Shown here piece by piece: positions 4,342 through 36,509 of a DNA stretch of 47,402 nt; positions within the stretch are counted from its first letter, which is position 1, and every line of letters starts with the position of its first letter. Made by a program: the position numbers and the translations under genes. The notes below the pieces were generated by a model, which did not search any database, was not told the origin of the DNA, and worked only from the letters and a program-made list of their open reading frames with translations. The stretch lies in the IMG/VR virus record IMGVR_UViG_2531839180_000006; one strand, written 5' to 3'. Origin of the DNA: a virus. Its lineage: Duplodnaviria; Heunggongvirae; Uroviricota; Caudoviricetes.

Positions 4342-7300
4342 TCAGCTAATCGTGATGCCTGCAGTGGCTTTCTTCATCACAACAACCAGCAAATCGCTGA
4401 TACTTGCTGTGGGATACCAACCATTTACCCACCATGCTGATACAGAAAACTCCAGTGTCATTACGCCACTGCCTGCAGGCATATCAATAACACCCGTGTA
4501 TATCAGCGTATTATCCAGAGCCGTTCGGTTATAAATTTCAGCCCCGTTTTTCTTCACTATCAGGCGGCATGACGAATAAGTATCGCTATTCTCCCGCTCA
4601 TGTCTGGCACCGCTGAAAGCCACCGCAGGAATAACAATTTGCCGGTCAAACGGCTGATCGTCATAAACCCTGACGGTAATGGTCCCTGATGGCCACCGCT
4701 CCGGTGCACGGGAGTCCCGGGGGAAAGCTTTGCCCACTGTTTTAACGAGATCGCCTTCAATCTGGTTCGCGGACAGTTTTCCCAGAACCCGACAGTTCTC
4801 GTTAATCGTGACGTTGTTGAGCGTCCCTGAATTTGCATTCACATTACCGCTGATATCCGCATTTTTAGCGGTCAACTTTCCGTCCGGTGTCAGGGAAAAT
4901 GCCGGCGGATTTCCACCGCTGGTAATGGTGGGAGCCGTCAGGCGTTTCAGGAACACGTCGTTCATGAATATCTGGTTGCCCTGCGCCACAAACATCGGCG
5001 TTTCATTCCCGTTTGCCGGGTCAATAAACGCGATACGATTGGCGGCAACCAGAAACTGGCTCAGCTTGCCTTCCTCCGTGTCCTCCATGCTGAGGCCAAT
5101 ACCCGCGACATAATGTTTGCCGTCTTTGGTCTGCTCAATTTTGACGCCCCACATAGCATTCCATTTATCGTTAGCGTCCTTCCACTCTTTCGAAAACTCA
5201 TCCAGTCTGCTGGCGTTATCCTCCGTCAGGTCGACTTTTTTCAGCAGCTCTTTACCGAGATGGGATTCGGTTATCTTGCCTTTGAAAAAATCCAGGTAAC
5301 CTTCCGCATCATCGCTCGCCCGACCGACGGCCTCCACGAATGCCGATTTGCCAACGGTGTTCACACTGCGGATATAAAAGTAATAATCATGGCCCGGTTT
5401 GATATTGATACTGGCGGCTATCCAGTACAGCGCCGTACCAAGATAGCGGGCTGTGGTTTCAACCTGCCTGATATCGGTAATCCGCTTTTCCGAGAACCAG
5501 AACTCAAACTGTACCGTCGGGTCATAAACAGCAAGATGCGGCGTGGCGGTTATCTGAAAATAGCCCGGCGTCAGCTCAATCCTCGACGGTGCTGCCGGTG
5601 CGGCAATCCGGAACGATACCGATGCCGGATCGCCCTGCTGCCCCCACGCATTTACTGCCCGGACTGTCAGCCTGTAGTTCCCCAGAGCCAGTTGTGTGAA
5701 GCGGTAAGTGGTTTCCGTCGTCCGGGCCGTGCTGACCAGCCGCTCACGGCCGTCATCCGCTGCCACGGTCAGGCGAAGCAGGAAGCTCACGCCCTTCACC
5801 ACCTTCGGCGTGTCCCAGCGGGCCAGCACCTGGTATTCCCCGCTGTCTGCGGTGACTTCTGCGGTCAGGTGCTGCACCGCTGGCGGCGTGACACCATTTA
5901 CCGTGCCGCTCTGGTCGCCGTCAAAGTGCGCCCCGTTATCCACGATGGCCTCTTTTTCCGGTACATGCTGCACGGCAGTGATGGCATACGTGCCGTCGTC
6001 GTTCTCACGGATACTCACGCAGCGGAACAGGCGCTGGCGCAACGTCGGCAGCTTCAGCCCCCATACGCTGTATTCAGCAACGCCGTCAGGAACACGGCTC
6101 ACTTTCACCTTCACGCCGTCGGTGACGGACTGAACCTCCACGCTGACCGGACTCCCCTGCCCGTCAACCAGGCTTATCAGCGTGGTACCGGAGGATGGCA
6201 GCGTGATTTCACGGTCGAGCGTCAGCGTCCGGGTCTGGCTGTTCACCGCCAGCACACGACCACCGGTGCTGATACCGGCATAGTCATCATCACAGATTTC
6301 AATAACATCGCCCGGCACATGGCGAAGCCCTTCTGCGCCCACGCTGAAGTCCACGGTCTGCGTTTCCAGCAGTTCTGTTTTAATCAGCCACAGCCCGGCG
6401 CGGTGTGCCTGCCCCCGGCTGGTACAGCCAAAAGCATCCATCTTCGTGACGTTACGACCGTAACGGGCAATAGCCTGCGTATCCTCCACAAGCTCTGTCG
6501 CCGTCTCCCAGCCGTTGTTCGGGTCAATCCAGTTCACCTCAACGGCATTATGGCGGTCCTTCAGGGCGCTGAAGCTGTAGCGGAACGGCGCGCCATCATC
6601 CGGCATCACCACATTACTGCGGTTATAGGTCCACACCTTATCTGATGGTCGGTCCTGCACGAACGTCAGCGTCTGCCCGTTCCATACCGGCATACAGCGC
6701 ATCGCCGAGCAGAAATCACTGAGCACATCCCACGCCTTACGCTGCGTGGTCAGCCAGGCATTACAGGTGATGCGCGGCTCCGTGCCGCCAAAACCGTCCG
6801 GCACCGACTGGTCGCAGTACTGGCCGATGACATACAGCGCCCATTTATCCACATCTGCCGCACCAAGACGTTTCCCCATGCCGTAGCGCGGATGGGTCAG
6901 CATATCCCACATACACCAGGCCATGTTGTTGCTGTATGCCGGTTTAAACGTTCCGTCCCAGATACCGCTGTATTGCCGCGTCTGCGGGTTATAATTCGAC
7001 GGCACCTGCAGAATACGCCCGCGCAGATGATAATTACGGCTCACCTGCTGGCTGCCGAACTGCTCCGAGTCCACCTGCACGCCGAACAGTGCCGTGTTCG
7101 GGTAGCACTGTTTCACATCGATGATTTCGGTGTATGACGACCAGAGCGTTTTGTTCTGCAGCTGGTCTGTGGTGCTGTCCGGCGTCATTCTGCGCATCCG
7201 GATATTAAACGGGCGCGGCGGCAGGTTATCCACCACCACCGAGGCCAGATACTGCGAGGTGGTTTTGCCCTTAATGGTGATGTCTTTTTCCGTCACCCAG

Positions 7301-7737
7301 CCACCGTTACGTTGTATCTGAACCAGCAGACGGACTTCCGACGGATTCCGGTCCCCCTTTGAGGTGGTTTCCACCAGTGCCTGCACACCGAAGGTAAAGC
7401 GCAGTCGGTCGATGTTTGCCGACGTGATGGCGCGGGTGATCGGCGTGTCGTATTTCACTTCTGTACCGAGCACCGTCTCGGAGCCGGAGGATTCAAATCC
7501 CTCCGGCGGAGTCTGCTCCTGCTCACCAGCCAGGAACACCACCGTGACACCGGCGATGTTGGTATTCCCCTCACTGTCCAGCACCGGCGTACTGTTCAGC
7601 AGCACGCTTTTTAATCCATCCACCGGACCTTCAACCGGCCCTTCACTGATGGCATCAATCACACTCAGCAACTGCGTGGATTTCAGGTTGTCCTTCGCTT
7701 CGCGCGGGGTATGCCCCTTACTGCTGCCTTTACCCAT
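4342..7737 (-). CDS. J: Tail tip / host specificity protein J (central tail fiber)
   Basis: 1131 aa, begins '[34 protein letters not shown]' as lambda J; lambda gene order. Confidence 0.95.
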
Positions 7738-7796
7738 TCGTCACGCTCCATAAACGACAAAACCGCCCGCAGGCGGTTTCACATAAACGTTTTTCA

Positions 7797-8468
7797 TCAT
7801 CGACCAATCACCACAACCTGACCACCATCCCCTTCGTCTGCCGTGCTGATCTCCTGAGAGACCACCCGCGACCCCACGCGCATTTCACCGTACAGAACCG
7901 GCAGAACATTGCCCTGGGCAACCATGTTATCCAGTGAGGAGAAATAGGTGTTCTGTTTGCCGTTATCCGTTGTCTGTGTACGGGGAGTTCTGGCTTTCGG
8001 TGCCAGCATCTGCGCCACACCACCGAGCACCATACTGGCACCGAGAGAAAACAGGATGCCGGTCATACCACCGGCCCCAATGGCTGCCCCCCATGCTGCA
8101 AGGGTGGCCCCGGCGGTAAAGAATGATCCGGCAATGGCGGCAGCCCCCAGGACAATCTGGAATACGCCACCTGACTTGGCCCCGGCGACTCTGGGAACAA
8201 TATGAATCACAGCGCCATCAGGCAGAGTCTCATGTAACTGCGCCGTTAATCCGGACGTGCTGACATCCTGCCCGGCAATCCGTACCTGATACCAGCCGTC
8301 GCTCAGTTTCTGACGAAACGCCGGGAGCTGTGTGGCCAGTGCGCGGATGGCTTCAGCCCCCGTTTTCACACGAAGGTCGATGCGGCGGCCAAATCGTTGT
8401 AAATCCCCGTAAAGGCAGATGCGCGCCATGCCCGGTGACGCCAGAGGGAGTGTGTGCGTCGCTGCCAT
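7797..8468 (-). CDS. I: Tail assembly protein I
   Basis: 223 aa, lambda I-like with ubiquitin-like N-terminus and Gly/Ala-rich hydrophobic C-terminus; synteny. Confidence 0.9.
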   Translation of the reverse strand: MAATHTLPLASPGMARICLYGDLQRFGRRIDLRVKTGAEAIRALATQLPAFRQKLSDGWYQVRIAGQDVSTSGLTAQLHETLPDGAVIHIVPRVAGAKSGGVFQIVLGAAAIAGSFFTAGATLAAWGAAIGAGGMTGILFSLGASMVLGGVAQMLAPKARTPRTQTTDNGKQNTYFSSLDNMVAQGNVLPVLYGEMRVGSRVVSQEISTADEGDGGQVVVIGR

Positions 8469-14336: not shown

Positions 14337-14732
14337 TCACATCTCGTATGTAATGGAATAAGTCAGATCCGCAGAGCTCCATAACGCCATATCGTCATCA
14401 CGACGATACTCATAGCCCTGCGTAACCATCGTGGTAATCAGTCCTGCCAGTGCCGGGATCGCAGTCATCGCCGGATAAATCCGGCTTTCCATCCACTGAT
14501 CAAGCTCTGAATCCGGTACCTGTGCCGGTAAAAACACCTCAATATGCAGTGTGGCCCGCCAGGTATCTGCATCCAGCTCTTCACCGGTATACTCTGCATC
14601 CGTCAGATAAACCGCGATCGCAGGAAAATCCTCTTCGTCAAAAACAACGGGGCGACCATCAAACAGCGTCGCCCCGTGTTCATGCTGCTCGAGTGCATCC
14701 AGCACTGCAGCACGGATATCAGTGTGTTTCAT
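14337..14732 (-). CDS. U: Tail terminator protein U
   Basis: 131 aa, lambda U-like; synteny. Confidence 0.95.
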
Positions 14733-15304
14733 CGTTTTATCGCAATCCTCAGTTGTTGTTTCAGCGCGGATGCCAGTTCTCCGGGCAGGCGTTCACGCCG
14801 GATACGGTCAACATTCTCATCAAATGCCTGTTTCAGTGGGGTCGCCATCGGGATTTTCACCACCTGAATGGGAAGGCGATTACGCTTTTTCCTTCCCTTG
14901 TCGTCATTGCCCTCCTCATATCTGGCCTGGGGAAGACGTTGCATAACATGCCAGCGCCCATTATTTAATCGCTGGATAAATGCCCGCTGATAACGATGCT
15001 GACCGGCTTTGAGTATGCTGTTCGGACGACGCCCCAGCATTCTGATCCCCAGCTTAATCACAGGGAGATCACCGCGGTTAACGATAATTCTGGCATTCGG
15101 ATTTCTGACCGTCGCCCGTTTCAGTCTGGACCGTTCCTTTACCAGTTTCCGTCTCACCCTGGTTTCCCGGGCAACCTGTGACGAAGACTGATTAATCGCC
15201 GTTGTGGCCACGCGGTTAATGGTCATTGCAGAAGCAGCCGGAATGGCGTTTTTACGAACCCGGCTCAGATTGTCAATCGCCTGATCAAGCCCTTTTATCG
15301 CCAT
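14729..15304 (-). CDS. Z: Tail completion protein Z
   Basis: 191 aa, lambda Z-like; synteny. Confidence 0.9.
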   Translation of the reverse strand: MAIKGLDQAIDNLSRVRKNAIPAASAMTINRVATTAINQSSSQVARETRVRRKLVKERSRLKRATVRNPNARIIVNRGDLPVIKLGIRMLGRRPNSILKAGQHRYQRAFIQRLNNGRWHVMQRLPQARYEEGNDDKGRKKRNRLPIQVVKIPMATPLKQAFDENVDRIRRERLPGELASALKQQLRIAIKR

Positions 15305-15318
15305 AATTCACCCTGCGT

Positions 15319-15672
15319 TTATCGTCGCCGGTTAACTGCGGGTGGTTGCCCACGGTTGAGCCAGAGATAACAGCTACCCCCGTCATCCGGAGAAACACGA
15401 TCCACCCAGAATGTCTCACCATTAATGGTCAGCGTGTCACCACGCCGCACGGCACGAACCGTATCCGTCCGCACAAATAATGACGGGCTGCTTCCTTCAA
15501 TACGGACCCCGCTACCGGCAAACCCCAGCGACTCCGGATCGTCAAAAACCCCCTGAACTTCGCTGCCACACTGTGCCCCCGAGGTGAACTGCGCACAGAG
15601 CCCCATCACTTCAACAATCGTTCTGTCCACCCCAGCAAGGGCAGCATCAAAGGAATTCTCAAAATCACGCAT
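15319..15672 (-). CDS. FII: Head-tail connector protein FII
   Basis: 117 aa; 'GSSPSLFVRTD...TFWVDRVSPDDGGSCYLWL' matches lambda FII. Confidence 0.95.
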   Translation of the reverse strand: MRDFENSFDAALAGVDRTIVEVMGLCAQFTSGAQCGSEVQGVFDDPESLGFAGSGVRIEGSSPSLFVRTDTVRAVRRGDTLTINGETFWVDRVSPDDGGSCYLWLNRGQPPAVNRRR

Positions 15673-16033
15673 AAACGGCCATTCCGCTCCTGACCATGTC
15701 TTTTGCCACTGAGGGGGGCATCAGAATTACTCTGCCAGCATCAACATGCTCAACAGGCTCACCTGTTTTATCGTCAACACCGCACAGGTAAAAACACTTC
15801 AGAAGCCTGATACGTTCCAGAATACCAACGTCATCCTCACCGGTGTGCCTGCATGCCTGCTCATGAACGGTATCATCAACATCTGCGATTTCATTTTCCG
15901 AGGCGCAAACCTCCTCTTCCCACTCTGCCACACGCTGTGCGATATCCGCAGCACTCCCCGACATATCCGCCTCGCGCCCCAGCAGACCAGCCAGTTCACG
16001 AAGACGTTTCTGATTTTCTTCTTTTGTTGCCAT
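15665..16033 (-). CDS. FI: DNA packaging protein FI (divergent)
   Basis: Position between E and FII; acidic ~120-aa protein; start MATKEEN with GGGAG SD. Confidence 0.7.
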   Translation of the reverse strand: MATKEENQKRLRELAGLLGREADMSGSAADIAQRVAEWEEEVCASENEIADVDDTVHEQACRHTGEDDVGILERIRLLKCFYLCGVDDKTGEPVEHVDAGRVILMPPSVAKDMVRSGMAVYA

Positions 16034-23663: not shown

Positions 23664-23897
23664 ATGTCAACGAAGAACAGAACCCGCAGAACAACAACCC
23701 GCAACATCCGCTTTCCTAACCAAATGATTGAACAAATTAACATCGCTCTTGTTCAAAAAGGGTCCGGGAATTTCTCAGCCTGGGTCATTGAAGCCTGCCG
23801 CCGGAGACTGTGCTCAGAAAAAAGAGTTTCGCCTGAAGCAAACAAAGAAAAGAGTGACATTACTGAATTGCTCAGAAAACAGGTCAGACCAGATTGA
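23664..23897 (+). CDS. Small ribbon-helix-helix (Arc/CopG-like) DNA-binding protein, hypothetical
   Basis: 77 aa with RHH-like 'TRNIRFPNQMIEQINIAL' segment; AT-rich; between cos and Rz on the opposite strand. Confidence 0.45.
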   Translation: MSTKNRTRRTTTRNIRFPNQMIEQINIALVQKGSGNFSAWVIEACRRRLCSEKRVSPEANKEKSDITELLRKQVRPD

Positions 23898-23954
23898 AGC
23901 AATTTAGATAATCGTGCAGACTACGCCCCCTCATATCACATGGAAGGTACTACA

Positions 23955-24365
23955 ATGGCTCAGGTTGCCATTTTTAAACAAATATTCGATAAAGTGCGAA
24001 ATAATTTAAACTATCACTGGTTTTATTCTGAACTAAAACGTCACAATGTCTCACATTACATTTACTATTTAGCCACAGAGAATATTCATCTTGTTCTTGA
24101 AAACGATAATACGGTTTTAATAAAAGGACAGGGTAAGGTTGTAAATGTAAGATTTTCAAAAAATAAATGCCTTATAGAAGCCACCTTAAAAGGATTCAAA
24201 TCAGGAGAGTTATCATTTTACGAATACAGGAAAAATCTTGCTACAGCAGGGGTTTTCAGATGGATTACAAATATCCACAAAAACAAAAGGTATTACTATA
24301 CCTTTGATAATTCATTACTCTTTACTGAGAACATTCAGAACACTACACAAATATTTCCGCACTAA
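23955..24365 (+). CDS. Hypothetical protein (DUF1398/YbcV-like by position and size)
   Basis: 136-aa ORF with GGAAGG SD; AT-rich; family assignment from memory only. Confidence 0.5.
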
Positions 24366-26343: not shown

Positions 26344-26559
26344 TTACTCTCCCCGTGCAGCCTTACGACGGTCCTCTCTGATTTTGAAATACAGGTTAGT
26401 CAGATATGTCAGCAGCCCAAACAGCAGACTCCCCAGCACGCCTATTGCCGCCCACTGAGACGGGGAAACCCTGTCCAGCAACTGCAGGAACCAGTAGCCC
26501 GTTCCCACCGCTGACGTGGTGTATGACACACCTGTTGTGATTTTTTCCATCTGGTCCAT
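26344..26559 (-). CDS. Class II holin (S21/pinholin-like, EssQ/EssD family) with dual-start motif MDQMEK
   Basis: '[65 protein letters not shown]' matches lambdoid class II holins; two TMDs; GGAG SD. Confidence 0.9.
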
Positions 26560-26866
26560 ACCCCGTCTCCCGTTATCCGGAAGCTGACAACAATAAAAAA
26601 GCCACCAGTTAACTACTGATGGCTCTGATAACTCATGCAAGCGTCTCAGACGACCCACTGGCACTACCGGTGAGTTTAACGATACCTTCCATTTGACTGA
26701 CTCACTTTTTATGATGATGCCGGTGCATTTATCTCCAGCACCAGACTTTCTGTCTCAACGCCATACGTTGCATTTTTGGTAATATCCGTCAGCGTCAGTG
26801 CATTTAGTCCCACTGCCAGACTGTCTTTTATGGCCTGGAATGCCGGGCCAGTACGATGACGTAGTA

Positions 26867-27055
26867 TCACTCCGGCTCAGTTGCACCGCTGACCACCACA
26901 TCACCTTCTGCTGCAATCGCCTGCATCAGGGTATAAGGGGTTATGGCCACCGGACTACCAAACGGCTGCCAGCCCTCTTTCAGTTTATGTGTCAGCTTTT
27001 CCGCAAGATCTGACGGCGGCGCCGCCCTGACAACATCATAGTGTTTAAATGCCAT
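26867..27055 (-). CDS. Small hypothetical late-region protein (DUF1737-like)
   Basis: 62-aa ORF 'MAFKHYDVVRAAPPSDLAEKL...' upstream of holin; family from memory. Confidence 0.5.
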   Translation of the reverse strand: MAFKHYDVVRAAPPSDLAEKLTHKLKEGWQPFGSPVAITPYTLMQAIAAEGDVVVSGATEPE

Positions 27056-27314
27056 GGTTCTTTCCACCATCTGAAAAATAATTCTTTAAAATACCTGACA
27101 TGTAATACAGAAAAAACACAAAACCATACCTTAAATAAAAACCTGATTATCAAGCAGATATGCATGGATAAACTACAAGACGAGATATAAACCACCCTGC
27201 ATTTAAATAAACAATAAACAACATCAGAAAAATAATTCTGCTCTATGGTTTAATTCAAAAATATCATTTATACTTTTCAGAACATCACCAGCAAGGCATA
27301 AACAAGGAAAGTAA

Positions 27315-27650
27315 ATGAAGTGGATTGTGATTGATACAGTTATCCAGCCATCATGCGGAATATCTTTTTCAGTCATATGGAGTAAAATAAAATTAATAAT
27401 CTGGTATCAATCGGATGCTTTCTTACCTCCTGAAAGTATATTTACACTGACTCACACAGGCATCATGCTCAATAACAAAGTGCTACCTGTAACCATTTAC
27501 AACGTAGTACCATTCAATAAAACATTCTGGAATTTAATCAAAAACAGCCAGGAATGCCCTACAAATACAGATAACGTATTGAATGAATGCTTTAATAACC
27601 GTTGCACTCTGCAAATATGTCCTTATGGACTAAAACAACAAAGTCCATAA
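27315..27650 (+). CDS. Hypothetical AT-rich cargo protein (111 aa, Cys-rich C-terminus), anti-sense to the late operon
   Basis: ORF with SD AAGGAAAG 6 nt before ATG; preceded by ~245-bp very AT-rich region; no recognisable family. Confidence 0.5.
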
Positions 27651-27685
27651 GGAGTTTACTCACATCTGACAAAATCAATATAAAC

Positions 27686-27705
27686 AGCCCCTCCGGAGAG
27701 GGGCT
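27686..27705. terminator. Perfect hairpin AGCCCCTC-CGGA-GAGGGGCT downstream of the 111-aa ORF and of the tRNA cluster; possible bidirectional terminator
   Basis: 8-bp perfect GC-rich stem with tetraloop read directly. Confidence 0.4.
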
Positions 27706-27939
27706 GGAGAGTGGCGCTATGTGCCATTGCATGGTGCCGGGTGCCTCCCGGTGAATTCAGTACCAGCACCTGAATCCGCGATTATCCCATATACCTACTC
27801 GCTGATTGCCCCTCCGCACAGGGGGATTCACCATGCCAGTTTCTTTTAACAAACTCCCCGCAAACCAGACAACAGTCAACCGCCTGAATTGTGAGACATT
27901 TAAAAAAAGCCCGCAAAAGCGAGCCAAGGAAAATAAGTG

Positions 27940-28016
27940 TGGCGCGTTGTACTGGATTCGAACCAGTGACCGATTGCTTAGAAGGCAATTGCTCTGTCCG
28001 GCTGAGCTAACAACGC
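27940..28016 (-). tRNA. argO: tRNA-Arg (anticodon UCU), argO-like
   Basis: Minus strand GCGTTGTTAGCTCAGCCGGACAGAGCAATTGCCTTCTAAGCAATCGGTCACTGGTTCGAATCCAGTACAACGCGCCA folds as a canonical cloverleaf (7-bp acceptor, TTCGAAT T-loop, CCA). Confidence 0.85.
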
Positions 28017-28029
28017 AGGATACAGATAA

Positions 28030-28106
28030 TGGACCGCCTTCGGGGACCCGAACTCCGCGCAACCAGCTTCGAAAGCTGGCGCTCTTTCCTGATGAGCTAA
28101 TGGCGG
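28030..28106 (-). tRNA. argN: tRNA-like, probable tRNA-Arg (anticodon UCG by eye), argN-like; non-canonical pairs, possibly degenerate
   Basis: CCGCCATTAGCTCATCAGGAAAGAGCGCCAGCTTTCGAAGCTGGTTGCGCGGAGTTCGGGTCCCCGAAGGCGGTCCA: cloverleaf possible but A-A mismatch in acceptor stem, A-C mismatch in T-stem, G at position 58. Confidence 0.55.
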
Positions 28107-28113
28107 TATGTGA

Positions 28114-28189
28114 TGGTGGCCCTTGCTGGATTTGAACCAGCGACCTGGCGATTATGAGTCGCTCGCTCTCACCACTGAGCTAAAGGGCC
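28114..28189 (-). tRNA. ileZ: tRNA with anticodon CAU (Ile2/lysidine type, ileZ-like; formally Met/Ile)
   Basis: GGCCCTTTAGCTCAGTGGTGAGAGCGAGCGACTCATAATCGCCAGGTCGCTGGTTCAAATCCAGCAAGGGCCACCA; closely resembles E. coli tRNA-Ile2; perfect acceptor stem, TTCAAAT T-loop. Confidence 0.85.
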
Positions 28190-29855: not shown

Positions 29856-30599
29856 CTAATCTGACGTCACACGCACCATTATACTTACTAAAGAAAAGTC
29901 ATCATCAGGTCCGGCTCTCTCTATACGACGCAAAATGCCATTAGAAAACTTCTGACTATTACTCATCGTATTTGATGTAAATCTGGGGCGTTTTTCCCAA
30001 ACGTTATGAACCCCATCAGACATGATACACAGATGATATACCCCGTTAATACTAGGTAAATCTTTCCATGTGATAAAATCACAGTCGTATTCCATATCAA
30101 CATTTGAGGCTATAGCCGTCGTTAAGATATTTTTGCCCGGTTTATCCTTCAAATCTCTGGGTTTAAAAATATTCTGATCAATTAGCATCTGATGCCTGGT
30201 ATCGTCCTTCGTCAATTGGTATGCTTTCTTCTCTCCAATGCAATACAAACGACAATCACCAATATGACCAATAATAATTCCGCTATCACAAACATAACAA
30301 AACGTAAGTGTAGTAGCAGCTTTATCGAACTCATCATTAACATCAGCTAACGACATAACCTTTCGCTTAACTTCATCAAATACATCCGGAACTGTGTCAA
30401 AAGATAAGCTTGTCAATGCTGAAAGCTCAGCAATTGCCATTGATGAAGCCTGACTGGCACCAGTGTATGAACCTACACCATCAGCTACGGCAAATAAGAT
30501 GCCATCCCCTACAATTTTGGGAGGAAGCAATGAATCTTCGTTGACCCTACCTGGTTCTTTTGGATACGAGAATGATGAAGTCGCTATCAGCTGAATCAT
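29856..30599 (-). CDS. PP2C-family (PPM) Ser/Thr protein phosphatase
   Basis: PPM motifs 'NEDS', 'FAVADGVGS', 'GDCRLY', 'MSDGV', 'DDDFS'; start overlaps kinase stop (ATGA); AT-rich. Confidence 0.8.
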   Translation of the reverse strand: MIQLIATSSFSYPKEPGRVNEDSLLPPKIVGDGILFAVADGVGSYTGASQASSMAIAELSALTSLSFDTVPDVFDEVKRKVMSLADVNDEFDKAATTLTFCYVCDSGIIIGHIGDCRLYCIGEKKAYQLTKDDTRHQMLIDQNIFKPRDLKDKPGKNILTTAIASNVDMEYDCDFITWKDLPSINGVYHLCIMSDGVHNVWEKRPRFTSNTMSNSQKFSNGILRRIERAGPDDDFSLVSIMVRVTSD

Positions 30600-31361
30600 G
30601 ACTCACTCCTTAAAAAAGAATGCACAAAATCAAACGCCACATCATCTATTGTCTGATATCTATCATCTTTATCCATCCTGGTACACTTCGCTATGATAGG
30701 CTTTATTTTTTTATCATCTAAATTTAAGTCCTCAATTAACCGCCCCACCGCATAAACATCAGTCTTAACTGAATACTCGGCATTATATAAAATCTCGGGA
30801 GCCATATATCTTGTACTTCCCATACGGGTACCGATCTCGGTCAATTTAGTGGTATCCCCTTCGGGATTTGTATCTTTTACCAGACCAAAATCAGACACCT
30901 TGTATGTTCCGTCGCTAAATCGCAAGACATTAAATGGTTTTATATCTCTGTGTAAATAGCCTTTCGCATGGATGTGAGCTACACCATCTAATACCATTTT
31001 CACTATTGAAATTTTTTGATCTGTTGTAAGAAGGTTGTTCGTTATTTCGTGCTCAAGATCACATTCTGCTTTATCCATAATGAACCATGGATTCTCGGCA
31101 AACAAATCGCACAAATAAATAGGAACAATATTGCTATGTACGCAATGTGATTGATACACGACCTCCCTTTTAAAACGCCTTCTAAACTGCTCTATTTGCG
31201 CCAAAAGCTCTGGTTTTTCGGGGGCTAAAACCTTTCTAGCATAATCCCCACATTCACCCTTGTTGAGGTTGTAAACCTTAACGTGTTCAACAAAGCCAAA
31301 TGCACCTCTTCCAATCAACTGAATTCGTTTTATAAAGTAATTACCGTGCTGTTCTTCCATT
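30596..31361 (-). CDS. Eukaryotic-like (Hanks-type) Ser/Thr protein kinase
   Basis: Gly-loop 'GRGAFGFV', 'YARKVL' lysine, catalytic loop 'HRDIKPFN', 'DFG', 'MAPE'; AT-rich; start MEEQHG chosen. Confidence 0.85.
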
Positions 31362-31378
31362 AAGCTCACCGACCTAAA

Positions 31379-31403
31379 TTGTAAGAATATCCATATCTTA
31401 CAA
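31379..31403. promoter_or_regulatory. 25-bp palindrome TTGTAAGAATATCCATATCTTACAA immediately upstream of the kinase RBS; operator-like
   Basis: Perfect 8-bp arms TTGTAAGA/TCTTACAA read directly on the plus strand. Confidence 0.4.
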
Positions 31404-31433
31404 CTACAGATAAAAAGGTCCACAGAGTTAAGC

Positions 31434-31458
31434 AAAAAACCCGCATTTAAGCGGGTTT
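31434..31458 (-). terminator. Intrinsic terminator downstream of the Q-like gene (AAACCCGC-TTAAAT-GCGGGTTTTTT on minus strand); candidate tR'
   Basis: GC-rich stem followed by U6 run on minus-strand transcript. Confidence 0.6.
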
Positions 31459-31504: not shown

Positions 31505-32194
31505 TTAATTGACTTTTGCAATATCTCGTCGTGAAAAGGTCGCTTTTTGTTGCGATCTCATTTTCACGGTGCAAATCAAGGATTCTGTATCGAGTTTCTT
31601 AAAAATGTCGCACATCTCACGCCAGTAGTTCGCATAATTATGGCTCCAGTTGTCAGGCTTAACTCCACACAGTCTGGCAAGTTCCTGTCGCTGGTAGACG
31701 TCACGCCCAGTAATCCTCCCCCTGACATCCTGCGCCGCCAGCCAGATTAATTTCTTCAGACGCTCAAGCGTTTTCCCTGTAATTTTTCTGGTGCCAAAAT
31801 GCACCTGAAACTTATCCCACGCCCATTTCGCAATGACCACCTGATAATCCCAACTCGGATTTTCACTGTATACCCACAGCACCCACGCCTTCTGATGCTC
31901 TTCAAGAGACAGAACGGCGCGTCGCCATGATGATGTCGAAAACTCAACCGGACTGACCAGGGCAATTGATGAACCTTTCGCCAGCGATTGCTTTCCCGGG
32001 ATTGGTGGATTATCCCGCGTTATCATTTTTCCAGTCACTTCATCGCGGTACCGGATTTTTTTACGCCTGTAACGCCCTGTATCGAACATGGCATTCTCTT
32101 GCCAGGCTTCAAGCTGACCTTTTGTTGCCCCACTCAAATCAGCGGTGGCGATAATGAGCTGCTCACGCACAAACTGTAAATACTGGTTATTCAT
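31505..32194 (-). CDS. Putative late-gene antiterminator Q (QuuQ/YdfT-like family)
   Basis: 229-aa ORF at the Q position (after rusA, before terminator and late genes); start overlaps rusA stop; family from memory, not lambda-Q-like. Confidence 0.55.
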   Translation of the reverse strand: MNNQYLQFVREQLIIATADLSGATKGQLEAWQENAMFDTGRYRRKKIRYRDEVTGKMITRDNPPIPGKQSLAKGSSIALVSPVEFSTSSWRRAVLSLEEHQKAWVLWVYSENPSWDYQVVIAKWAWDKFQVHFGTRKITGKTLERLKKLIWLAAQDVRGRITGRDVYQRQELARLCGVKPDNWSHNYANYWREMCDIFKKLDTESLICTVKMRSQQKATFSRRDIAKVN

Positions 32195-32556
32195 GCGCAC
32201 TCCAGTTCTGTGATTTTTATCCCCAGCCGCCCACCAGGAACGAGATGACCGCGCACAATATTGATTTCATCAAACTGCTCGTCGTCTATAAGTAGTCCGG
32301 CATGCGTCAGCGCATCCAGTGGTGCCTTCAGGATATTGTCCAGGTCGCGGCGGCGCTTATCCGGTGGCTCTGCAATAATCTTTATCGCCAGCCTTCCGGA
32401 CAGGTTTAATTTCAGCCGCTGCTGGCGAACAATTAGCGCCACATCACGGCGATAACGCTTTCCGGCTTCCGAGATGAAATACGTATTGCCATGACGTCGC
32501 CAGTAGGTATTCACCGTCGGCGGGTAAGGCAAAACAAATTCTATGCGTTCAGTCAT
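32191..32556 (-). CDS. rusA: Holliday junction resolvase RusA
   Basis: 121 aa; 'PPDKRRRDLDNILKAPLDALTHAGLLIDDEQ' matches RusA catalytic region. Confidence 0.85.
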   Translation of the reverse strand: MTERIEFVLPYPPTVNTYWRRHGNTYFISEAGKRYRRDVALIVRQQRLKLNLSGRLAIKIIAEPPDKRRRDLDNILKAPLDALTHAGLLIDDEQFDEINIVRGHLVPGGRLGIKITELECA

Positions 32557-35025: not shown

Positions 35026-35958
35026 ATGCACAGCGTTAATTTCTATTCATTCCGCGTATTGACCCATAAAGGCAGTCGAGCCAGCAAAAAACTTAATGAA
35101 TTGGGTTTAAGTAATAAAAAAACGGCATATGAACTTTTTGTTGATTATTTTACTCTATATAAAAACACCCCCATCGAGTTTGGCGTATCCAAAACTAAAA
35201 TATCTCTGGAACAACACGCTAAACTTCACTTTGATAACTCAAAGAAAATTATATATGGTTATATAAAAGTTGGGAAATATGGAGAAAGCAGTGAAATAAA
35301 AGATGTAAAACTCAAAAAAATCCACTACAGGACAACTGCTTATGATGTAACACTCAAAGAACGTTATATTTTAATATACCTACCAGACGCCCTTGAAGAA
35401 GGAATTATTGCATTCCACTCTTGCGATAATATTTCTGCCCGAGGTGTCCTTTCTGATTCTATCACTGAATATCTAAAAAACAAATTTCAACTCGAAGCAA
35501 GAATCAATCCATTACATCATAAGAAAATCCCTCAATATATTCTCAATTCCGAATTAAAACAAATTAAGGCTCAAGGATATAAAGCACCAAAAGACATTGC
35601 TGATTCCTTTGGTCAAAACAAAACAAACATCAAGACAGACTTAATAATAAAAGCAAACGATGGCATGTTCGGAAGTTTCAGGGATTTAAGAAACAAGAAT
35701 ATAGGAAACATCATTGAGATTATTGAAGATAAATGTGATGCAATAAAAGTAAGCTTACAACTCGGCAGTCGGACTGTCGTTTTCAATTATGAGACCATAC
35801 TAAAAAAAGGAATTTCTGCAGAGTTAGATGATAATGATTTAAAAATCGACCCATTAACAGGCATACCTGATCTAACAGCACTTCATGACACGATAAAAAA
35901 CCTTTCTAATGATATATTGTTAGAACTGCATAGCGGAAACAAAGGGGTGATTATATGA
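35026..35958 (+). CDS. Hypothetical soluble protein (310 aa), first gene of an AT-rich two-gene cassette; candidate sensor component
   Basis: Long ORF with SD AAAAGGA; very low GC compared with flanking phage genes; no recognisable catalytic motif by eye. Confidence 0.6.
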   Translation: MHSVNFYSFRVLTHKGSRASKKLNELGLSNKKTAYELFVDYFTLYKNTPIEFGVSKTKISLEQHAKLHFDNSKKIIYGYIKVGKYGESSEIKDVKLKKIHYRTTAYDVTLKERYILIYLPDALEEGIIAFHSCDNISARGVLSDSITEYLKNKFQLEARINPLHHKKIPQYILNSELKQIKAQGYKAPKDIADSFGQNKTNIKTDLIIKANDGMFGSFRDLRNKNIGNIIEIIEDKCDAIKVSLQLGSRTVVFNYETILKKGISAELDDNDLKIDPLTGIPDLTALHDTIKNLSNDILLELHSGNKGVII

Positions 35959-36509
35959 ATAAAATAAATGTGCTGGGTGTAATAATAAAACACTACAAAA
36001 CAATGTCAGATCAGCGTGGAACAATGTTGATGAGCGACATTATCGTACATTTTATTGTTCCGTTATCTCTTTCTTTCGTTCTGTGCCGGACATACGGAAT
36101 AATGAAACCGGCAATTGCTTCCGTCTTCGTTAACTTCGGGGCTATTACAACAGCACTATTAATGAGTGCAGTAATAATGATTTATGAACAAAAACAAAAA
36201 ACCATCACTAAGATATCAGACATAATTGAAGGAAACAAATCCCGAGACAAATTGATATCATTAAACACTAACAAAACCATATATGAGCAGTTATGCCACA
36301 ACGTCGCTTATGCAATATTAACTTCAATAGTATTGGTTATATTTTCAGTGATAATATATTTCCTGCCTGACAATGCAGTGGATTTAATGAAATGGTATTT
36401 TCGCGCACCTGCATATATTGTTAGCTTTTTAGCCTATACATCCTTTTTTATCACTGTTATAACGTTCTTAATGGTAATAAAAAGATTTAGCACAATTTTA
36501 GATAATTGA
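35955..36509 (+). CDS. Hypothetical integral membrane protein (184 aa, ~4 predicted TM helices), second gene of the cassette; candidate membrane effector
   Basis: Four hydrophobic ~20-aa segments; start overlaps upstream stop (ATGA); SD AAAGGGGTGA. Confidence 0.6.
   Translation: MNKINVLGVIIKHYKTMSDQRGTMLMSDIIVHFIVPLSLSFVLCRTYGIMKPAIASVFVNFGAITTALLMSAVIMIYEQKQKTITKISDIIEGNKSRDKLISLNTNKTIYEQLCHNVAYAILTSIVLVIFSVIIYFLPDNAVDLMKWYFRAPAYIVSFLAYTSFFITVITFLMVIKRFSTILDN

What the first reader, a model, noticed from the sequence alone, without database searches (positions are those of the whole stretch)
27071..27705. Anti-sense AT-rich 111-aa Cys-rich ORF occupying the position where Stx phages carry stx
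Downstream of Q and the ileZ-argN-argO-like tRNA cluster and upstream of the holin, on the strand opposite the late operon, lies a 111-aa ORF (27315..27650) with a good SD, six cysteines clustered in the C-terminal half and a hydrophobic N-terminus. It is preceded by a ~245-bp extremely AT-rich promoter-like region and followed by a perfect hairpin. Q, tRNAs, cargo, lysis is the canonical cargo slot of lambdoid phages; no stxA/stxB-like ORFs are present.
Basis: partly seen in the sequence, partly recalled or inferred. Interest (0 to 1): 0.55.

Follow-up and report, generated by a model that had tools for sequence, protein, structure and literature searches.

The report
Prophage copy of the iraL gene
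The "mystery" 111-aa ORF is iraL, an already characterised prophage-borne gene whose protein blocks the adaptor RssB and so protects the stress sigma factor RpoS from degradation; it is ordinary and present in about a quarter of complete E. coli genomes.

Summary
The ORF at 27315..27650 (+) is real. Its protein is 100% identical to IraL of uropathogenic E. coli CFT073 (c1429, WP_000871291.1). IraL is an IraM-family anti-adaptor shown in 2014 to bind RssB and stabilise RpoS in log phase.

It passes the NCBIfam IraM model (162 bits, cut-off 121). It matches the solved IraM structure 8TWD (E 9e-32), and its model folds like IraM/PmrD.

The same 635 bp occur in 1446 of 5426 complete E. coli genomes and in 4 phage records. 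In all eight loci I inspected it sits downstream of Q/tRNAs, on the opposite strand, and upstream of DUF1737-holin, a SASA esterase, or (one rearranged locus) tail genes.

Corrections:
- There are 5 cysteines, not 6 (4 in the tail).
- The N-terminus is a beta-strand, not a signal peptide.
- The GC-rich "perfect hairpin" is the terminator of a convergent sRNA, STnc100 (27676-27865, minus strand).

Two small additions:
- This allele lacks one base in the -35 hexamer of the promoter mapped in CFT073, so its expression level is uncertain.
- The four tail cysteines are among the most conserved positions of the wider family, yet no function for them turned up in the papers I searched.

Novelty: already known. 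Interest: low.

The parts
27071..27281 (+). AT-rich intergenic/regulatory region between the divergent DUF1737 gene (-) and iraL (+). It contains a 13-nt direct repeat GAAAAATAATTCT at 27073 and 27227, and a PhoP-box-like site at 27204-27220 (-) that is not above chance.
   Evidence: 27071-27314 is 28.3% GC, the lowest in the window. It is near-identical to CFT073 and E275a. Repeat; PhoP-like site.
27249..27274 (+). iraL sigma-70 promoter by homology to CFT073. The -10 is TATACT (27269-27274). The -35 position reads TTTAAT (27249-27254) because the C of CFT073's TTTACA is deleted here.
   Evidence: Alignment with CFT073. The TSS in CFT073 was mapped by 5'RACE (PMC4045071). The hexamer assignment is my own inference from the mapped TSS.
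27282..27314 (+). iraL 5' UTR (33 nt) from the position homologous to the mapped TSS (A at 27282). SD AAGGA at 27304-27308.
   Evidence: The 5'RACE sequence ACATCACCAGCAAGGCATAAACAAGGAAACCA matches window 27282 onward, except GT for CC just before the ATG.
27315..27650 (+). iraL coding sequence, 111 aa. Residues 1-78 form the PmrD-like beta-barrel that contacts RssB in IraM. Residues 79-111 form the tail carrying C81, C92, C97, C102.
   Evidence: 100% protein identity to CFT073 IraL. NCBIfam NF007393 at 162 bits vs cut-off 121. PDB 8twd_A E 9e-32. AF2 pLDDT 83.6 and Foldseek TMt 0.89 to 8twd_A.
27620..27653 (+). Perfect 12-bp hairpin spanning the iraL stop codon. Its loop and 3' arm encode the QQSP extension that IraL has relative to IraM. 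It is a possible weak terminator or 3'-end stabiliser of iraL mRNA.
   Evidence: -17.5 kcal/mol, z -4.1. Its role is inferred only.
27676..27865 (-). STnc100-family prophage sRNA gene, convergent with iraL. Its 3' end is 26 nt from the iraL stop codon.
   Evidence: Rfam RF02076, 132.4 bits vs gathering 47, E 2e-30, model 1-206/206. It sits at the same relative position in 8 of 8 other iraL loci.
27685..27706 (-).
   Evidence: -20.8 kcal/mol on the minus strand.
27940..28189 (-). Context: three phage tRNA genes (Met-CAT, annotated tRNA-Ile in RefSeq; Arg-TCG; Arg-TCT), followed by a terminator-like site at 27925-27908 (-).
26344..27070 (-). Context: DUF1737 ORF (26867..27070), a 53-aa ORF, and a P21-type class II holin (26344..26664). 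This is the start of the lysis cassette.

Best explanation
The ORF is iraL, a lysogen-expressed cargo gene (moron) of a lambdoid prophage.

Mechanism: its product is a small cytoplasmic anti-adaptor of the IraM/IraL/RssC family. The PmrD-like beta-barrel (residues 1-78) binds the response-regulator-like adaptor RssB, and for IraL specifically the N-terminal receiver domain. RssB then cannot hand the sigma factor RpoS to the ClpXP protease. RpoS lasts longer and the general stress regulon is primed even during exponential growth.

Transcription: the gene is read from its own sigma-70 promoter inside an AT-rich region, on the strand opposite the phage late operon. It therefore does not depend on Q. 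It would be read antisense by late transcription during lytic growth.

Shown versus inferred:
- Shown here: identity to IraL, family membership, fold, the conserved genomic slot, and the promoter allele.
- Shown in the literature for the identical protein: RssB binding, RpoS stabilisation, and the TSS.
- Inferred: that this particular allele, with a 1-bp deletion in the -35 hexamer, is still expressed. Also inferred are H-NS-type silencing of the AT-rich region and interference from late transcription.
For: - The protein is 100% identical to CFT073 IraL, and the coding DNA is identical.
- It has the same RefSeq protein WP_000871291.1 in CFT073, E275a, JJ1886 and E2348/69.
- NCBIfam IraM model: 162 bits against a cut-off of 121.
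- 62% identity to K-12 IraM with no gaps.
- PDB 8twd_A (IraM bound to RssB): E 9e-32.
- The AF2 model (pLDDT 83.6) superposes on 8twd_A at TMt 0.89 and rmsd 1.2 A, then on PmrD structures.
- Of the IraM residues that contact RssB, 10 of 14 are identical in IraL. All 5 that contact the RssB N-terminal domain are identical. This fits the published finding that IraL binds only that domain.
- The published work on this protein covers a deletion phenotype, complementation and 5'RACE, and a two-hybrid interaction with RssB.
- iraL mRNA rises 1.6 log2 on a shift to 37 C, and IraL rises in a fur mutant.
- The 635-bp region is in 1446 of 5426 complete genomes at 90-100% identity.
Against: - The promoter differs from the one that was tested. 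The C of the -35 TTTACA is missing, which shortens an already short 15-nt spacer to 14. There is also a G>A change at -1 and a CC>GT change between the SD and the ATG.
- Hryckowian et al. stated that expression of a JJ1886 copy with a -35 mutation is unknown. One JJ1886 copy carries exactly this allele.
- The simple promoter scan did not pick up the mapped promoter.
- No expression data exist for this window's host.
Confidence: 0.9

Rival explanations
1. The gene is an intact but poorly expressed (near-silent) iraL allele. The coding sequence is maintained, but the 1-bp deletion in the -35 hexamer cripples the promoter, so in this prophage the gene contributes little to RpoS control.
For: The -35 reads TTTAAT instead of TTTACA, and the spacer is 14 instead of 15 nt. 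The authors who mapped the promoter flagged a -35 variant of unknown activity. The exact 87-bp promoter allele is the best match in only 163 of 1438 genomes, whereas E2348/69, ST131 and CFT073 keep TTTACA.
Against: The allele is not rare or decaying. It is in 163 complete genomes with an intact ORF, and the coding sequence is identical to CFT073's. The CFT073 exact allele is itself rarer (32 genomes). AT-rich promoters often depend on UP-like sequence and activators rather than on the -35. A second promoter-like site lies at 27208-27236, but such sites were no more frequent than in shuffled sequence.
Confidence: 0.25
2. The ORF encodes a secreted or membrane-targeted Cys-rich toxin or effector that occupies the stx slot. 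This is the reading hinted at by 'hydrophobic N-terminus, cysteines, cargo slot'.
For: Only its position in the Q-tRNA-lysis slot and the cysteine cluster support this.
Against: There is no signal-peptide-like N-terminus: Asp7, and a maximum hydropathy of 1.16. Residues 1-78 align without gaps to cytoplasmic IraM solved in complex with RssB, and residues 2-11 are predicted as the first strand of the model. The identical protein acts on RssB inside the cell. There were no PADLOC hits.
Confidence: 0.01
3. The protein is a PmrD-like connector that acts on a response regulator other than RssB (for example PmrA), rather than an RpoS anti-adaptor.
For: The fold matches PmrD structures 2jso, 4hn7 and 2rqx (TMq 0.54-0.59). 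Precomputed Pfam hits for family members are PF11183, labelled PmrD.
Against: Sequence identity to PmrD is only 13-20%, against 65% to IraM in the structural alignment. RssB contact residues are conserved. RssB interaction and RssB-pathway phenotypes are published for the identical protein.
Confidence: 0.03

Closest known systems
IraL (c1429, formerly ycgW) of uropathogenic E. coli CFT073; Hryckowian et al., mBio 2014 (PMC4045071)
   Same: The protein and coding DNA are identical. It is in the same prophage slot: Q, tRNAs, (DUF3927), STnc100, then iraL on the opposite strand, then DUF1737 and holin. The ~1.8-kb block is 98.7% identical.
   Different: The promoter allele differs: a 1-bp deletion in the -35, G>A at -1, and CC>GT before the ATG. 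A ~640-bp DUF3927 segment present in CFT073 is absent here. The rest of the prophage is mosaic, at 74-98% identity.
IraM (b1160) of E. coli K-12, the Mg2+-starvation anti-adaptor; structure 8TWD with RssB (PMC10844676)
   Same: Same family, same length core, and 62% identity without gaps. Same PmrD-like fold. The 4 tail cysteines and most RssB contacts are shared. It also has an AT-rich upstream region (26% GC) and a DUF1398 gene on the same strand upstream.
   Different: Only the coding sequence is homologous (70.6% DNA identity); the promoters are unrelated. IraM is stress-induced and binds both RssB domains. IraL acts in log phase and binds only the N-terminal domain. IraL has a 4-residue C-terminal extension (QQSP).
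RssC of Salmonella and the wider PmrD-like (PF11183) small-protein family
   Same: The profile search finds 93 clusters at 50% identity. They share P12, W30, W72 and the C-x10-C-x4/5-C-x4-CP(Y/F)G tail.
   Different: Identity is only 20-41%. The contexts sampled for two distant members were not phage late regions. I did not identify which hit, if any, is RssC.
PmrD (connector protein protecting phospho-PmrA)
   Same: Same unusual beta-barrel fold, and the same logic of a small protein binding a response-regulator receiver domain.
   Different: 13-20% identity, a different target, and no Cys4 tail aligned (PmrD is 85-88 aa).
Lambdoid-phage morons in the late region (stxAB of Stx phages; bor, lom of lambda)
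   Same: It is inserted between conserved late-region genes, has deviant GC content and its own promoter, and benefits the lysogen. It occupies the slot between Q/tRNAs and the lysis genes used by stx. In two strains it abuts a SASA-family esterase; that this is the nanS-p family is from my own knowledge.
   Different: stx is co-oriented with, and driven by, late transcription from pR'. iraL is on the opposite strand, so Q-dependent transcription would be antisense to it. The product is a regulator of host proteolysis, not a toxin or surface protein.
STnc100 / PasD prophage sRNAs (Rfam RF02076; Zhu, Shabalina & Storz, bioRxiv 2026)
   Same: There is a full-length Rfam hit at 27676-27865 (-) in a lambdoid prophage, as described for this family.
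   Different: Its constant convergent pairing with iraL is not mentioned in that preprint. A search of its main text for IraM, IraL and anti-adaptor found nothing.

Membership tests
IraM/IraL/RssC anti-adaptor family (NCBIfam NF007393) | Sequence match to the curated family model above its cut-off | tested here: met
   162 bits vs cut-off 121, E 4.7e-48, model 1-113/114. The local Pfam-A scan gave no hit, but precomputed PF11183 hits exist for all close relatives.
IraM/IraL/RssC anti-adaptor family (NCBIfam NF007393) | PmrD-like antiparallel beta-barrel plus one helix in residues 1-78 | tested here: met
   AF2 with a 52-sequence alignment gave pLDDT 83.6 and pTM 0.75, with strands 2-66 and helix 69-77. 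Foldseek top hit was 8twd_A at TMt 0.89 and rmsd 1.2 A, followed by PmrD structures.
IraM/IraL/RssC anti-adaptor family (NCBIfam NF007393) | Conservation of the residues by which IraM contacts RssB (clusters I-III of PMC10844676) | tested here: met
   Cluster I 5/5 identical. Cluster II 3/5 identical (T13S, L75I). Cluster III 2/4 identical (H63N, I64V).
IraM/IraL/RssC anti-adaptor family (NCBIfam NF007393) | C-terminal tail with four conserved cysteines | tested here: met
   C81, C92, C97 and C102 are present. They are 96-100% conserved in 31- and 52-sequence alignments.
IraM/IraL/RssC anti-adaptor family (NCBIfam NF007393) | Binds RssB and slows RssB/ClpXP-dependent RpoS degradation | not testable with these tools
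   Published for the identical protein from CFT073: two-hybrid with the RssB N-terminal domain (PMC4045071), and the RpoS half-life falls from ~5 to ~2.5 min in the deletion mutant.
iraL type (as opposed to iraM type) | At least 95% identity to CFT073 iraL over the whole coding region (criterion used in PMC4045071) | tested here: met
   The coding DNA is identical in the alignment and the protein is 100% identical. Identity to K-12 iraM is only 70.6% DNA / 62% protein.
iraL type (as opposed to iraM type) | The mapped sigma-70 promoter and TSS of iraL are conserved | tested here: inconclusive
   The TSS-homologous base, the -10 TATACT and the 5' UTR are present. The -35 TTTACA has lost its C, and there are 3 further substitutions near the start. 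Activity was not measured.
Phage moron (lysogenic-conversion cargo gene) | A discrete insert between conserved phage genes, with deviant base composition and its own promoter and terminator | tested here: met
   The region is 33% GC against 50% for the window. It is flanked by tRNAs/STnc100 and by DUF1737-holin in the window and five other loci; in E2348/69, ST131 and strain 98202 the far flank is instead a SASA esterase or tail genes. A promoter was mapped in CFT073. There are hairpins at its 3' end, but the terminator function is inferred.
Shiga-toxin-type cargo | stxA/stxB-like AB5 genes co-oriented with the late operon | tested here: not met
   There are no such ORFs between 26664 and 27940. 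The only gene there is iraL, on the opposite strand.
STnc100 sRNA (Rfam RF02076), for the adjacent hairpin | Covariance-model match above the gathering score, ending in an intrinsic terminator | tested here: met
   132.4 bits vs 47, full model length. Terminator-like site 27706-27685 (-).

The most novel reading that the evidence does not exclude
The four tail cysteines (C81-x10-C92-x4-C97-x4-C102, within CP...CPYG) may form a metal-binding (Zn or Fe-S) or redox-sensitive module. Such a module would control the stability or activity of IraL/IraM-type anti-adaptors.

They are among the most conserved positions of the whole family (96-100% across 52 sequences, down to 20% identity). Yet the tail was cut off for crystallography as 'less conserved' and flexible, and it is dispensable for RssB binding.

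A second, weaker novel reading is that iraL and the convergent sRNA STnc100 (3' ends 26 nt apart in 9 of 9 loci) form one co-regulated cargo module.
Probability: 0.3. Interest if true: 0.4.

Novelty: already known. Interest (0 to 1): 0.12.

Why it matters
As a discovery it matters little. iraL was named and characterised in 2014, and RefSeq already annotates it (as "anti-adapter protein IraM") in more than 1400 complete genomes.

It is a useful calibration case. The stx-equivalent slot of a non-Stx lambdoid prophage carries a regulator that rewires host RpoS proteolysis, and it is oriented so that it is independent of, and probably opposed by, late transcription.

Three loose ends could interest RpoS specialists:
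- Promoter alleles vary between lineages, which might explain strain differences in log-phase RpoS levels.
- The function of the near-invariant Cys4 tail: none turned up in the papers I searched.
- iraL is constantly paired with the STnc100 sRNA.

Tried and rejected
- The local Pfam-A scan of the ORF gave no family even at E<=1. The family was reached through NCBIfam, PDB and homologue searches instead.
- PADLOC gave no hit for the ORF, so it is not a known defence protein.
- Signal peptide or TM idea: the best 19-residue hydropathy is 1.16, with Asp7. Rejected.
- Fur box (GATAATGATAATCATTATC): no site with 7 or fewer mismatches in 27041-27320, even though IraL is reported to rise in a fur mutant. 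That effect is probably indirect.
- PhoP box (KGTTTA-N5-KGTTTA): one 1-mismatch site at 27204-27220 (-), about 62-78 bp upstream of the TSS. Two such sites in the window against 0.84 expected, and 20 of 100 shuffles do as well. My consensus also found no site with 1 or fewer mismatches upstream of PhoP-dependent K-12 iraM. Uninformative.
- The sigma-70 scan found no more sites than shuffles and missed the mapped promoter, which has a 14-15-nt spacer.
- The first AF2 run, with 16 close homologues, was poor (pLDDT 54.8). The run with 52 diverse sequences was good. No coordinates were available, so I could not measure Cys-Cys distances.
- Looking for homology between the K-12 iraM flanks and the window found only the iraM and ycgX(DUF1398) coding regions. 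The 'same decayed prophage slot' idea stays suggestive only.
- Contexts of two distant family members were short contigs without phage late genes. No conclusion about a phage origin of the whole family.
- A literature search for IraM with cysteine or zinc found no study of the tail.

Full report
**What is there.**
Window 27315..27650 (+) is a 111-aa ORF. It has an AAGGA Shine-Dalgarno sequence 6 nt before the ATG.
- The 244 bp upstream are 28.3% GC against 50.1% for the window, at the minimum found for any 244-bp window sampled. The ORF itself is 34.5% GC.
- The surrounding genes are on the minus strand.
  - Q lies at 31505..32200 (Pfam Phage_antiter_Q, E 4e-84).
  - A Ser/Thr kinase and a PP2C phosphatase follow.
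  - Then come a 94-aa ORF and a DNA methyltransferase.
  - Three tRNAs lie at 27940-28189.
  - Past the ORF come a DUF1737 ORF, a P21-type holin, a lysozyme and a spanin-like lysis protein.
The exceptions are that Q is not directly next to the tRNAs, that the protein has five cysteines (14, 81, 92, 97, 102) rather than six, and that the N-terminus is only mildly hydrophobic.

**Identity.**
- A megablast of the 635-bp region found it in 1446 of 5426 complete E. coli genomes (1608 places, up to 3 per genome, 90-100% identity). It is annotated throughout as "anti-adapter protein IraM". It is also in 4 phage records.
- The ORF passes the NCBIfam IraM model (162 bits, cut-off 121).
- It matches PDB 8twd_A, IraM residues 1-78 crystallised with RssB (E 9e-32).
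- It is 62% identical, without gaps, to K-12 IraM.
- The literature describes a paralogue, IraL, in uropathogenic CFT073 that is 58.9% identical to IraM and lies on the "potB island".
- I fetched that region of CFT073. The protein there (WP_000871291.1) is 100% identical to the window's ORF, and the coding DNA is identical. The window's ORF is therefore iraL.

**How it works.**
These points are established for the identical protein (PMC4045071):
- Deleting iraL lowers RpoS in log phase in CFT073 and Shigella sonnei.
- The RpoS half-life falls from ~5 to ~2.5 min in the deletion mutant. Reintroducing iraL with its native promoter increases RpoS stability again.
- The gene with 100 bp of upstream sequence raises log-phase RpoS in K-12.
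- IraL binds the N-terminal receiver domain of RssB in a two-hybrid assay.

The IraM-RssB crystal structure shows the mechanism for the family. The PmrD-like beta-barrel bridges the RssB domains and occludes the alpha4-beta5-alpha5 face that RpoS needs.

My own checks agree:
- An AlphaFold model built on 52 diverse homologues (pLDDT 83.6) superposes on 8twd_A with TMt 0.89 and rmsd 1.2 A. The next hits are PmrD structures.
- Of the 14 IraM residues listed as RssB contacts, 10 are identical in IraL.
- All five contacts to the RssB N-terminal domain are identical. The substitutions fall in the clusters that touch the C-terminal domain and the linker. That fits IraL's reported N-domain-only binding, though this link is my inference.

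**Expression.**
- 5'RACE in CFT073 gave an mRNA starting ACATCACCAGCAAGG.... This corresponds to window 27282, 33 nt before the ATG.
- Only the last ~35 bp of the AT-rich stretch therefore hold the promoter hexamers.
- The alignment with CFT073 shows that the window's allele lacks the C of the likely -35 hexamer (TTTACA becomes TTTAAT). This shortens the spacer from 15 to 14 nt.
- It also has G>A at -1 and CC>GT just before the ATG.
- The same allele occurs in strain E275a and in one of the two copies in JJ1886.
- The 2014 paper noted a -35 mutation in the JJ1886 iraL2 copy and stated that its expression is unknown. I could not see their figure, so equating the two is an inference.
- The exact 87-bp promoter allele of the window is the best match in 163 of 1438 genomes. 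The exact CFT073 allele is the best match in 32. E2348/69 and an ST131 strain keep TTTACA.
- Other papers report that iraL mRNA rises 1.6 log2 on a shift from 23 to 37 C, and that IraL rises in a fur mutant.
- I found no Fur box, and only a chance-level PhoP-like site.
- H-NS-type silencing of the AT-rich region is plausible but untested here.

**The hairpins.**
There are two perfect inverted repeats.
- The first (27620-27653, 12-bp arms) spans the stop codon and folds at -17.5 kcal/mol (z -4.1). It may end or stabilise the iraL mRNA, but it lacks a clear U-run.
- The second (27685-27706, 9-bp GC stem) has its T-run on the minus strand. It is the 3' end of a full-length Rfam STnc100 hit at 27676-27865 (-), at 132 bits against a gathering score of 47.
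- STnc100 is a known prophage sRNA related to PasD.
- An STnc100 copy sits in the same convergent position, 26 nt from the iraL stop, in all eight other loci I fetched.

**The slot.**
- I inspected eight loci: CFT073, E275a, JJ1886, E2348/69, an ST131 strain, 5CRE51, 98202 and phage vB_EcoS-640R1. In all of them iraL lies downstream of Q, or of the DUF1133 protein that occupies that position in E2348/69 and ST131, usually with tRNAs and a DUF3927 gene between, and on the opposite strand.
- On its other side lies either DUF1737-holin or a SASA-family esterase. In one rearranged case tail genes follow instead.
- The block from STnc100 to the holin is 98.7% identical between the window and CFT073, while the rest of the two prophages is mosaic.
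- This is the slot that stx occupies in Stx phages (from my own knowledge). Unlike stx, iraL is oriented against late transcription. Q-dependent read-through would be antisense to it (inference).

**The cysteines.**
- In alignments of close (16) and distant (31 and 52) family members, C81, C92, C97 and C102 are 96-100% conserved. P12, W30, W72 and P103 are similarly conserved.
- These are among the most conserved positions of the family, at identities down to 20%.
- C14 is not conserved. Many distant members have a Cys at position 11 instead.
- The structural paper removed residues 79-107 as proteolytically unstable, "less conserved" and predicted flexible. The truncated protein still binds RssB.
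- My model gives the tail pLDDT 52-72.
- I found no study of these cysteines.
- A metal-binding or redox role is therefore an open possibility, but nothing here demonstrates it.

**Verdict.**
The interpretation as cargo in the stx slot is supported. However, the gene is the already described iraL. The novelty class is "already known" and interest is low.

Noticed in passing
window 27676-27865 (-): There is a full-length STnc100-family sRNA gene (Rfam 132 bits) convergent with iraL. RefSeq instead annotates a partial 'hypothetical protein' pseudogene on the other strand at the equivalent of 27721-27846. The sRNA and iraL are paired in 9 of 9 loci examined, and three loci carry a second STnc100 copy about 280 nt further on.
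   Followed up: partly
window 29856-31435 (-): A Ser/Thr protein kinase (279 aa) and a PP2C phosphatase (247 aa), with overlapping stop and start, lie between Q and the methyltransferase. The kinase hits the PADLOC defence models mad6 (E 3e-40), PD-T4-6 and Stk2. This suggests a prophage-encoded kinase-based exclusion system with its own phosphatase.
   Followed up: partly
window 35026-36509 (+): Two overlapping ORFs (310 and 184 aa) lie on the strand opposite the early-right genes, in the lowest-GC 635-bp stretch of the window (31.8%). They have no Pfam or PADLOC hit and are annotated only as hypothetical proteins in strain E275a. This is another moron-like insert of unknown function, near hokD/sok.
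   Followed up: partly
window 23881-24365 (+) and L002 (K-12) 6681-8186: K-12 iraM has a DUF1398 gene (ycgX) upstream on the same strand. The window likewise has a DUF1398 gene upstream of iraL on the same strand, with the minus-strand lysis cassette in between. Only the two coding regions are homologous (about 70%). The K-12 iraM locus next to e14 could be a decayed version of the same prophage region.
   Followed up: partly
L001 (E275a) 14607-15835 versus window ~29665: The closest genome match (E275a, 99.7% identical over 14.6 kb) carries an IS2 insertion between the methyltransferase region and the phosphatase that the window lacks. Another genome (AR_0058, hit H44) has IS1 inserted in iraL itself.
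   Followed up: no
window 27620-27653 (+): The four extra C-terminal residues of IraL relative to IraM (QQSP) are encoded by the loop and 3' arm of a perfect 12-bp hairpin. The extension may be a by-product of an RNA structure rather than a selected peptide.
   Followed up: no
window 27073-27085 and 27227-27239 (+): There is an exact 13-nt direct repeat, GAAAAATAATTCT, at both ends of the AT-rich region upstream of iraL. Its significance is unknown.
   Followed up: no
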